The notes beneath the pieces were generated by a model. The model saw only the letters and a program-made list of their open reading frames with translations, was not told the origin of the DNA and ran no database searches. Positions 397 through 1,854 of a DNA stretch of 64,000 nucleotides are shown here, piece by piece. Numbering within the stretch: the first letter of the stretch is position 1; every line of letters begins with the position of its first letter. The stretch is from Escherichia coli. Its GTDB lineage: Bacteria; Pseudomonadota; Gammaproteobacteria; Enterobacterales; Enterobacteriaceae. A program made the translations under genes and the position numbers. The stretch lies in NCBI RefSeq assembly GCF_016903815.1, contig NZ_CP069973.1. The stretch is one strand, 5' to 3'.

Positions 397-1854
397 ATGA
401 CAATTTCAAATTCGAATTTATTGAAACCGTTTATTACTGGTAGTGAGTTGCCACCTTTTAAAGAGGATGTCTTTTCTAAAACAGAAGAACAATTTAAAAA
501 AAGCCCCCATGGCAAATTGCTTTTCATTTCCGGAAATGAAAACTTAGTAAACATTTCAGCGGAAAAAATCGATGAAATAAAAAATAGCAAAGATTTCTTT
601 TCAAACATTGTAAATATAATAATTTTACTCATTAAGCATCCTGATAAAATTCTGCCCATTCTTCATGGTTGTCCTGCAGAGTCCATCGAACTCATTAAGA
701 ATGCGAAACGAACGGGGCAATGGTCATATGAGATGACTGATAAGAACGGGCAGAGTATTGAAGTGTCCTATATTTTCACTGATACCATAGATAATAATTA
801 TGATGGAAAATTATGCTTAAAAATCTGTAACCCCTGCAACCAAAATGATTCTAGTACACATGAATATAAAATAGATCATCAACAGTTGAAAAATCACATA
901 AGGCAACTTGAGGAGTGGGCCCTTCTTGAAAAGTTTTATGATAACAACGCTTATTATTCTAAACGTACAAAACAATTAGAGAAGAAAATTGCCGATGCGG
1001 GGTTTATAACAGGGAAGGTTAATGCCGATAACTTTAATGTAAAAGAGTTTAAAGACGATATAGCCTCGATGCTTTGTGAACAGCCCCCCATGCGTACACA
1101 CCAGATTTCTTCATCCGGATACTTATCTGCCGATAAAGTGCCCGATCTCTATAAGACAAATTTGAAAGACGCGCAGAGAGATCTGAAAACAACACCGGTT
1201 GACATCGATGGTGTTAGTCTAAAACCAAAAACTCGGGAAAAAATTGCGGAAAAAATTGCGAAAAAAACTGAGGAAGAAAATGCGAAAAAAATTGCGAAAC
1301 AAAATGCGAAGACCATTGAGGAGAAGAATAGTGAAAAAAACAAGAAAGAAACAAATCCTGAGGATAATTTTGTCTTAAAATTCTCACCGGAAGAAATCAA
1401 TGAGATGCTCCTGGATTACAGCGATGAAGAACAAAAAAAATTAAGACCTTTTTTCACTAGTGATCATATCTATTGTTTGTTTGATGCTTTTAGTCAGGGT
1501 TTGTATAATGTTGCTCGTAATGGCAGTCCACGGTATGCAGGTTTACTACGTCAAATAGCATCCAAGTGTGCGATATTACAAGATTTTGATCAACAATTGT
1601 TCTGGCGCACGTTTTCAGGAGGAGTCTTCCATCGACGTATCTCTGTGAACAGCGAGCCAGAAAAGACAGATGTATGGCGATTCAGTACACAATTTGATTT
1701 TCCATATATAAATGAAAACGGAGAGTTGTCCAGAACGGTACTCATGTTCGAGGGGGTTGCTGAAAGCAACTTTAAAGATATCGCCAATCATTCCAGCGAA
1801 TGTTTTTCTTACAGCTGTTATGCCGCCCCGCTGGATGCGAATGCTAAAAAATAG
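397..1854 (+). CDS. hypothetical 485-aa protein on an AT-rich islet; Ser/Asn-rich N-terminus, central Lys/Glu-rich tandem repeat, C-terminal domain with conserved Cys/His; possible secreted effector or other accessory function
   Basis: Long ORF in a region visibly much more AT-rich than the flanking genes; occupies the malZ-acpH interval, which as I recall is short in K-12. No family recognised by eye. Confidence 0.55.
   Translation: MTISNSNLLKPFITGSELPPFKEDVFSKTEEQFKKSPHGKLLFISGNENLVNISAEKIDEIKNSKDFFSNIVNIIILLIKHPDKILPILHGCPAESIELIKNAKRTGQWSYEMTDKNGQSIEVSYIFTDTIDNNYDGKLCLKICNPCNQNDSSTHEYKIDHQQLKNHIRQLEEWALLEKFYDNNAYYSKRTKQLEKKIADAGFITGKVNADNFNVKEFKDDIASMLCEQPPMRTHQISSSGYLSADKVPDLYKTNLKDAQRDLKTTPVDIDGVSLKPKTREKIAEKIAKKTEEENAKKIAKQNAKTIEEKNSEKNKKETNPEDNFVLKFSPEEINEMLLDYSDEEQKKLRPFFTSDHIYCLFDAFSQGLYNVARNGSPRYAGLLRQIASKCAILQDFDQQLFWRTFSGGVFHRRISVNSEPEKTDVWRFSTQFDFPYINENGELSRTVLMFEGVAESNFKDIANHSSECFSYSCYAAPLDANAKK

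What the first reader, a model, noticed from the sequence alone, without database searches (positions are those of the whole stretch)
1201..1340. Imperfect tandem DNA repeat encoding a KIAEKIAKK-type Lys/Glu-rich segment inside the 485-aa ORF
The stretch contains repeated (a)aaaaattgcgaaa units (aaaaaaattgcggaaaaaattgcgaaaaaaactgaggaagaaaatgcgaaaaaaattgcgaaacaaaatgcgaag) encoding REKIAEKIAKKTEEENAKKIAKQNAK. Such repeats are slippage-prone and could make the linker length vary between isolates. The A-runs could also cause assembly or frameshift artefacts.
Basis: seen in the sequence. Interest (0 to 1): 0.3.

Follow-up and report, generated by a model that had tools for sequence, protein, structure and literature searches.

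The report
Variable 12-base repeat in orphan gene
A real, in-frame 12-base tandem repeat inside an E. coli-only gene of unknown function changes copy number between strains, lengthening or shortening a Lys/Glu-rich segment four amino acids at a time; this is an ordinary kind of repeat polymorphism with no sign that it acts as a switch.

Summary
Window 1231-1362 is an in-frame array of eleven 12-nt units (TREK IAEK IAKK TEEE NAKK IAKQ NAKT IEEK NSEK NKKE TNPE) inside the 485-aa ORF 397-1854. Lag-12 identity is 0.70 against 0.37 in shuffles (0 of 2000 reach it). Among 121 distinct repeat-bearing homologues the segment is 37-61 aa long in strict 4-aa steps while both flanks keep their length. 14 DNA alleles hold 7-13 units, and every indel is a multiple of 12 nt in the best-conserved 5' units. 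A repeat-less sister allele has the same 30-aa segment in 120 of 120 variants. The array is stable within clones (16 of 16 sampled O157-type genomes have the same length), so it is not a fast switch. Two ±1 changes in A7/A8 runs truncate the gene in other strains, and one is shared by two independent assemblies. The host gene is an AT-rich single-gene insertion between malZ and acpH, present in about 21% of complete E. coli genomes. It has no detectable homologue elsewhere and pN/pS of about 1. The closest analogue is the tolA intragenic repeat. Verdict: a new member of a known kind, of low interest.

The parts
397..1854 (+). Orphan ORF of 485 aa (stop included), annotated 'hypothetical protein' in every record seen. 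GGAG at 386-389 lies 7 nt before the ATG.
   Evidence: ORF, sequence. (no Pfam, NCBIfam, PDB, PHROGs or PADLOC family). (only its own family among 1.84 billion representatives). (485 codons against a maximum of 155 in shuffles; pN/pS 0.79-1.27).
1231..1362 (+). In-frame tandem array of eleven 12-nt (4-codon) units: TREK IAEK IAKK TEEE NAKK IAKQ NAKT IEEK NSEK NKKE TNPE.
   Evidence: periodicity, shuffles, unit table. (unit maps of 14 alleles).
1243..1290 (+). Variable core: the four units (IAEK IAKK TEEE NAKK) between the first unit and the IAKQ unit. All copy-number changes among alleles fall here, with 0 to 6 units in other alleles.
   Evidence: L012 and L016 have TREK directly followed by IAKQ; L011 has six units here; all alignment gaps lie in 1241-1333, except one at 1433.
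1291..1362 (+). Degenerate 3' units (IAKQ NAKT IEEK NSEK NKKE TNPE), present in the same number in all 14 alleles.
1334..1340 (+). A7 run. A +1 insertion (A8) in strains 95-3192 and 99-3311 gives a stop three codons later (…NKS*).
   Evidence: the two loci are identical over 3364 nt.
1433..1440 (+). A8 run, 70 nt downstream of the array. A -1 deletion in strain TUM14759 frameshifts the gene.
212..1871 (.). AT-rich single-gene insertion (37.5% G+C against 49.6% in the flanks) between the malZ stop and the acpH stop. Strains without it have malZ and acpH 4 nt apart.

Best explanation
This is a coding variable-number tandem repeat. A 12-nt unit (consensus AAAAAATTGCGA, reading I/T/N-A-E/K-K) was duplicated head to tail inside an E. 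coli-restricted, weakly constrained orphan gene. Because the unit is four codons, mispairing between neighbouring near-identical units adds or removes whole units without breaking the frame. The mispairing may arise by replication slippage or by RecA-dependent unequal recombination, as shown for tolA. The changes are confined to the 5' units that are still most alike; the decayed 3' units no longer take part. The product is a Lys/Glu/Ala/Ile-rich, proline-free segment, predicted to be helical, that joins a 270-aa N part to a 162-aa C part and differs by 4 aa per step (7-13 units seen). Events are rare enough for the length to be fixed within clones. Nothing indicates that length is selected, so the polymorphism is most simply near-neutral. 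Shown: the repeat, its frame, the unit-wise polymorphism, its confinement to the array, and clonal stability. Inferred: the mispairing mechanism, the helical spacer role, and neutrality.
For: Repeat beyond chance. Units share DNA descent rather than only an amino-acid pattern: Ala is GCG in 5 of 5 array codons against 6 of 22 elsewhere in the ORF (Fisher p=0.006). Length ladder in 4-aa steps with constant flanks. Unit maps show whole-unit gains (ACTGCGGAAAAA duplicated in L011 relative to L007), whole-unit losses (ATTGCGGAAAAA lost in L006 relative to L004; four units lost in L016 relative to the window on the same 'PK' background), and one 12-nt out-of-register deletion that fuses two units (L005). 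All lie in the 5' core. Internal control: the repeat-less type B allele has a 30-aa segment in 120 of 120 variants. One flank background (57 variants linked by 3 or fewer differences) carries three lengths (53, 57 and 61 aa), so events recur. Clonal stability. Helix: residues 277-308 in the window allele and 277-312 in the 13-unit allele, with local pLDDT about 50-73. There is no proline in the core of any of 121 alleles. Weak constraint on the host gene: pN/pS 0.79-1.27 against 0.03 (acpH) and 0.12 (malZ) from the same loci. Four independent disruptions were seen. Precedent for mechanism and for a helical spacer: the tolA 15-mer repeat, 8-16 copies among 234 isolates, RecA-dependent contractions at 6.9e-5 (PMC3477136).
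Against: No reads and no clonal population data were available, so the instability rate and mechanism are not measured. The structure models have low overall confidence (mean pLDDT 40.6 and 39.0), and the predicted helix grew by 4 residues, not 8, when two units were added, so 'helical spacer whose length scales with copy number' is only weakly supported. pN/pS near 1 could reflect diversifying selection rather than relaxed constraint, in which case length might also be selected. The census rests on distinct protein sequences and a systematic sample of 60 of 1125 genomes, not on all isolates.
Confidence: 0.8

Rival explanations
1. Adaptive length tuner: copy number is under selection because the segment sets the distance or orientation between the N and C parts of the protein, as with tolA, where repeat number changes stress tolerance.
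For: The tolA precedent (PMC3477136). The 485-codon frame is maintained far beyond chance. Several length classes are each common (339, 351 and 363 nt in 28, 18 and 8 of the sampled records). The segment is predicted helical and is proline-free.
Against: The protein has no known function. pN/pS is about 1, with polymorphic columns spread evenly across the protein. The gene is absent from about 79% of genomes and was found disrupted four independent ways. A sister allele works, or persists, without any repeat. In-frame changes are automatic for a 12-nt unit, so they are no evidence of selection.
Confidence: 0.12
2. Convergent amino-acid pattern, not DNA duplication: selection for a charged amphipathic helix created the 4-residue periodicity, and the length differences are ordinary indels.
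For: The hydrophobic periodicity is sharp at 4.0 residues, and the units are only about 80% alike.
Against: Synonymous choices are shared between units (GCG 5 of 5 against 6 of 22). Lag-12 identity also exceeds codon shuffles. Every indel is a multiple of 12 nt and lies among the most similar units. A 4.0 period matches neither helix geometry (3.6) nor heptads (3.5).
Confidence: 0.04
3. Frameshift on/off switch: the A7/A8 runs in and next to the array act as a contingency tract that turns off the C-terminal part.
For: ±1 changes occur at exactly two A-runs in other strains, and one is shared by two independently assembled strains, so it is likely real.
Against: Only 3 of 58 sampled full-length matches have a length that is not a multiple of 3. 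The runs are short (7-8). No reversion or within-clone mixture was seen. Other disruptions (IS1, nonsense) point to plain gene decay. Homopolymer errors in long-read assemblies remain possible for the single TUM14759 case.
Confidence: 0.04
4. Assembly artefact: the length classes come from collapsed or expanded repeats in assemblies.
For: Repeats and A-runs are classic trouble spots, and no reads were available here.
Against: The whole array is 84-156 nt (7-13 units), which I take to be shorter than typical sequencing reads (general knowledge, not checked here). The same lengths recur in many independent complete genomes and follow lineage, for example all 16 O157-type records. The lengths differ only by exact units with distinct unit sequences.
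Confidence: 0.02

Closest known systems
Intragenic tandem repeat of E. coli tolA (Zhou, Michiels & Aertsen 2012, PMC3477136)
   Same: A short in-frame unit repeated head to tail inside an E. coli gene. It lies in a segment described (tolA) or predicted (here) as alpha-helical that connects two other parts of the protein. Copy number differs among natural isolates in whole units (8-16 in tolA; 7-13 here). Less conserved units flank the active ones.
   Different: The unit is 12 nt rather than 15 nt. Only 0-6 units are actually variable. The host protein is a dispensable orphan of unknown function, not a conserved envelope protein. No rate, RecA dependence or phenotype has been measured here. The host gene shows pN/pS of about 1.
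Phase-variable simple-sequence contingency loci (homopolymer or short-unit tracts that shift the frame; named from general knowledge)
   Same: A repeat-mediated, mispairing-driven length change in a coding region. A7/A8 runs here do carry ±1 frameshift variants in some strains.
   Different: The 12-nt unit cannot shift the frame. Length is fixed within clones. The A-runs are short and their variants are rare and look like decay.
Charged single alpha-helix (ER/K) spacers and heptad coiled coils (named from general knowledge)
   Same: Lys/Glu-rich, proline-free, and predicted as one continuous helix between two other parts of the protein.
   Different: Only 52% of residues are charged. Opposite-charge i→i+4 pairs do not outnumber same-charge pairs (8 vs 8). 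Hydrophobic periodicity is 4.0, not 3.5. It is not a member of either class by these criteria.
Fast-evolving AT-rich ORFans of E. coli (general concept, from my own knowledge)
   Same: The host gene is AT-rich (37.5% G+C), restricted to part of one species, without homologues, and shows a high pN/pS.
   Different: It is unusually long for such a gene (485 aa), and it exists as two diverged allele families at a fixed chromosomal site with no mobility genes.

Membership tests
Coding variable-number tandem repeat (tolA-type intragenic TR) | Head-to-tail copies of a short unit, beyond chance | tested here: met
   TRF period 12, 6.1 copies, 80% matches. Lag-12 identity 0.70, with 0 of 2000 shuffles reaching it.
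Coding variable-number tandem repeat (tolA-type intragenic TR) | Unit length a multiple of 3 and array in frame within a coding sequence | tested here: met
   12-nt units in register with codons from 1231.
Coding variable-number tandem repeat (tolA-type intragenic TR) | Copy number differs among isolates in whole units, with changes confined to the array | tested here: met
   Segment 37-61 aa in 4-aa steps with constant flanks. 7-13 units in 14 DNA alleles. The repeat-less allele is invariant in 120 of 120 variants.
Coding variable-number tandem repeat (tolA-type intragenic TR) | Measurable expansion or contraction within a clonal population (rate, RecA/UvrD dependence) | not testable with these tools
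   This needs reads or fluctuation assays. Comparative data show stability within clones (16 of 16 O157-type records have the same length).
Coding variable-number tandem repeat (tolA-type intragenic TR) | Phenotype depends on copy number | not testable with these tools
   No function is known for the host protein.
Phase-variable contingency locus | Tract whose length changes shift the reading frame or alter a promoter | tested here: not met
   The array changes only by multiples of 12 nt. It lies in the middle of the ORF, not in a promoter.
Phase-variable contingency locus | Frequent, reversible switching seen as mixed or homoplastic on/off states among close relatives | tested here: inconclusive
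   A-run ±1 variants exist in 3 of 58 sampled full-length matches, and one is shared by two strains with identical loci. No reversions or mixtures could be assessed.
ER/K single alpha-helix domain | Continuous predicted helix without breakers | tested here: inconclusive
   Helix 277-308 and 277-312 at pLDDT about 50-73, within models of mean pLDDT about 40. No Pro in any of 121 cores.
ER/K single alpha-helix domain | Very high E/K/R content with a predominance of opposite charges at i→i+4 | tested here: not met
   52% charged; 8 opposite-charge against 8 same-charge i→i+4 pairs.
Heptad coiled coil | Hydrophobic periodicity near 3.5 residues | tested here: not met
   Power 0.21 at 3.5 and 0.08 at 3.6, against 1.33 at 4.0.
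Any described protein family (for the host ORF) | Significant match to a curated profile or a solved structure | tested here: not met
   Pfam best E=0.003, below cut-off. NCBIfam none. PDB profile search none at E<=10. PHROGs and PADLOC only weak partial hits.

The most novel reading that the evidence does not exclude
The orphan is a functional, rapidly diversifying protein (for instance a secreted or interaction-facing factor; its N-terminus MTISNSNLLKPF is Ser/Asn/Thr-rich), and the 12-nt array is an evolvable ruler whose unit number is selected to set the spacing between its two parts. Under this reading the repeat-less type B allele is an alternative solution to the same problem.
Probability: 0.08. 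Interest if true: 0.45.

Novelty: new member of a known kind. Interest (0 to 1): 0.2.

Why it matters
It matters little by itself. In practice the array could serve as a lineage marker among the roughly 21% of strains that carry the gene. The A7/A8 runs are places where annotation pipelines call this gene 'frameshifted'. The host gene is a fairly clean example of a long, species-restricted ORFan that keeps its frame while its amino-acid sequence drifts freely, which could interest people who study gene birth and decay.

Tried and rejected
- **Protein identification failed everywhere.** Pfam, NCBIfam, PHROGs, PADLOC and a PDB profile search gave nothing usable. phmmer against 1.84 billion representatives returned only the family itself and fragments. 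tblastn against phages found nothing, and the two plasmid hits are 4.9-Mb chromosomes mislabelled in that collection.
- **Species range.** An invariant 35-mer and then a protein-pattern scan of 100,044 species-representative genomes found no relative. The second scan used only two heptapeptide patterns, so a diverged copy could have been missed.
- **Structure.** Two AlphaFold runs gave mean pLDDT of 40.6 and 39.0. I did not run fold searches, because matches to such models would be meaningless.
- **Literature.** Searches for the locus by neighbouring genes, O157 locus tags, the RefSeq protein accession, or as a VNTR marker found nothing. ECs0453 turned out to be malZ.
- **Regulatory and RNA scans.** The promoter/terminator scan showed nothing above shuffles. 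Rfam found nothing in the gene.
- **Antisense ORF.** I dismissed the 83-aa ORF at 1149-1400 as a by-product of the A/T runs; this is a judgement and was not tested.
- **Coiled-coil and ER/K readings.** Both were tested and not met.

Full report
**Setting.** The first 6 kb of the window is the E. coli malZ (3' end) / acpH / queA / tgt / yajC / secD neighbourhood, judging by the translations and the annotations of matching records. Between the malZ stop (211) and the acpH stop lies an AT-rich stretch carrying a single ORF, 397-1854 (+), of 485 aa. GGAG sits 7 nt before its ATG (read). Strains without the ORF have malZ and acpH only 4 nt apart, so window ~212-1871 is a 1.66-kb single-gene insertion. 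Its G+C content is 37.5%, against 49.6% in the following 18 kb. The gene is found in 1125 of 5426 complete E. coli genomes, always at this site and always annotated 'hypothetical protein'.

**The observation.** Tandem Repeats Finder reports a 12-nt period array at 1238-1310 (6.1 copies, 80% matches, consensus AAAAAATTGCGA), extending to 1340 at periods 24 and 48. The repeat finder shows eight registers spaced exactly 12 nt apart. Lag-12 self-identity over 1229-1340 is 0.70. Dinucleotide-preserving shuffles give 0.365 +/- 0.046 and codon shuffles give 0.396 +/- 0.052, and none of 2000 of either kind reaches the observed value. In frame, the array reads TREK IAEK IAKK TEEE NAKK IAKQ NAKT IEEK NSEK NKKE TNPE (1231-1362). 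The quoted DNA has one A too many at its start, and the box begins about 30 nt before the array. The units share synonymous choices: alanine is GCG in 5 of 5 array codons against 6 of 22 elsewhere in the ORF (Fisher p=0.006). The periodicity therefore comes from DNA duplication and not only from an amino-acid pattern.

**Does copy number vary?** Yes, and only in whole units.
- Homologue lengths form a ladder of 469, 473, 477, 481, 485, 489 and 493 aa.
- Among 121 distinct repeat-bearing sequences, the part before the segment is 270 aa in all and the part after is 162 aa in 119. The segment itself is 37, 41, 45, 49, 53, 57 or 61 aa.
- In an alignment of 10 DNA alleles, every gap falls within window 1241-1333, except one at 1433.
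- Unit maps of 14 alleles show 7 to 13 units, all differences being multiples of 12 nt.
- The changes lie between the first unit and the IAKQ unit, where units are most alike (ATTGCGGAAAAA, ATTGCGAAAAAA, ACTGCGGAAAAA). The six degenerate 3' units are present in every allele.
- Individual events can be read directly. ACTGCGGAAAAA is duplicated in L011 relative to L007. ATTGCGGAAAAA is lost in L006 relative to L004. Four units are lost in L016 relative to the window on the same background. L005 has a 12-nt out-of-register deletion that fuses two units.
- One flank background (57 variants linked by 3 or fewer differences) carries three lengths, so events recur.

**An internal control.** A second allele family (type B, 461 aa, 79% identical, for example L008) lacks the repeat. 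Its corresponding segment is 30 aa in 120 of 120 distinct variants. Length polymorphism is therefore tied to the repeat, not to the position in the protein.

**Tempo.** In a systematic sample of 60 of the 1125 carriers, the 351-nt query region is 339 nt in 28 records, 351 nt in 18 and 363 nt in 8. All 16 O157-type records are 339 nt, and seven records from unrelated sources are identical to the window. The array is stable within clones and is not a fast switch.

**A-runs.** The ORF has ten runs of A6-A8, and the window's own frame is intact through all of them.
- TUM14759 has -1 in the A8 run at 1433-1440.
- Strains 95-3192 and 99-3311 have +1 in the A7 run at 1334-1340, which gives a stop three codons later.
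- The loci of those two strains are identical over 3364 nt although assembled independently, which favours a real inherited mutation over a random error.
- Other disruptions are an IS1 at about 927 in WCHEC4533 and an internal stop in 18KM2445.

**What the segment is likely to be.** It is 52% charged (12 K, 10 E, 1 R), with Ala, Ile and Asn. No proline occurs in the core of any of 121 alleles. AlphaFold models have low overall confidence (mean pLDDT 40.6 and 39.0). They place one continuous helix on the array: 277-308 in the window allele and 277-312 in the 13-unit allele, with local pLDDT about 50-73. Hydrophobic periodicity is 4.0 residues (power 1.33), against 0.21 at 3.5 and 0.08 at 3.6. 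Opposite-charge i→i+4 pairs do not outnumber same-charge pairs (8 vs 8). It is therefore neither a heptad coiled coil nor an ER/K single helix by the usual criteria. 'Helical spacer' remains an inference.

**The host gene.**
- No family matches in Pfam, NCBIfam, PHROGs, PADLOC or PDB sequences.
- phmmer against 1.84 billion representatives finds only this family and its fragments.
- There is no relative in phages or true plasmids, nor in 100,044 species-representative genomes.
- Names attached to homologues are E. coli, Shigella dysenteriae and two unclassified enterobacterial isolates.
- Across seven alleles, pN/pS is 0.79 (N part) and 1.27 (C part), with segregating sites spread over codon positions (25/15/27 and 15/11/11).
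- acpH and malZ from the same loci give 0.03 and 0.12, with variation concentrated at third positions.
- The 485-codon frame still far exceeds the longest open run in 1000 shuffles of the insert (155).
- Polymorphic columns are spread evenly along the protein, which leans towards relaxed constraint rather than focused diversifying selection. The two were not separated.

**Mechanism and comparison.** The best reading is a coding variable-number tandem repeat. Mispairing between near-identical 12-nt units adds or removes four codons at a time, whether by replication slippage or by unequal recombination. Frame preservation is automatic and is not evidence of selection. The closest documented case is the tolA intragenic repeat of E. 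coli. It has a 15-mer unit in the alpha-helical domain II that links domains I and III, and 8-16 copies among 234 isolates. Its contractions are RecA-dependent at 6.9e-5, and its copy number affects stress tolerance (PMC3477136). The present array shares the architecture and the polymorphism, but no rate, genetic dependence or phenotype has been measured, and its host protein is a dispensable orphan. I found no paper on this locus.

**Verdict.** It is a new member of a known kind and of low interest. The only mildly unusual aspect is the host gene's combination of a long maintained frame with a neutral-looking substitution pattern.

Noticed in passing
window 397-1854: The host ORF shows pN/pS of 0.79-1.27 with variation spread evenly over codon positions, while the flanking acpH and malZ from the same loci give 0.03 and 0.12. 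Its synonymous diversity (about 0.04) is also 2-3 times lower than its neighbours'. Even so, the 485-codon frame is maintained.
   Followed up: partly
L008 1298-2683 and L009 1298-2683 (same site as window 397-1854): A second allele family (461 aa) has near-identical termini but a strongly diverged middle (about residues 281-395) and no repeat, so the gene is a mosaic of two haplotypes.
   Followed up: partly
window 2460-2584: The acpH-queA spacer carries an element of about 125 nt that gives a sub-threshold Rfam hit (V_AS5, 38.7 bits against a gathering score of 96). From memory, its core at 2499-2545 resembles the ERIC/IRU repeat. The spacer is 93, 219 or 296 nt in different strains, so the element is present or absent by strain. 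A search with the remembered ERIC core at up to 3 mismatches found nothing.
   Followed up: partly
window 245-290: An 11-bp perfect inverted repeat (CAGCCCTGACA ... TGTCAGGGCTG) with a 24-nt loop lies just after the malZ stop, inside the inserted DNA. It may be a terminator for malZ. The consensus scan did not list it.
   Followed up: no
L018 845-1542 (about window 927): Strain WCHEC4533 carries an IS1 inside an allele that is otherwise 100% identical to the window, splitting the gene.
   Followed up: yes
plasmid collection hits H101, H102: Two records of 4.9 Mb in the plasmid collection are evidently chromosomes, so 'plasmid' hits from that collection need a length check.
   Followed up: no
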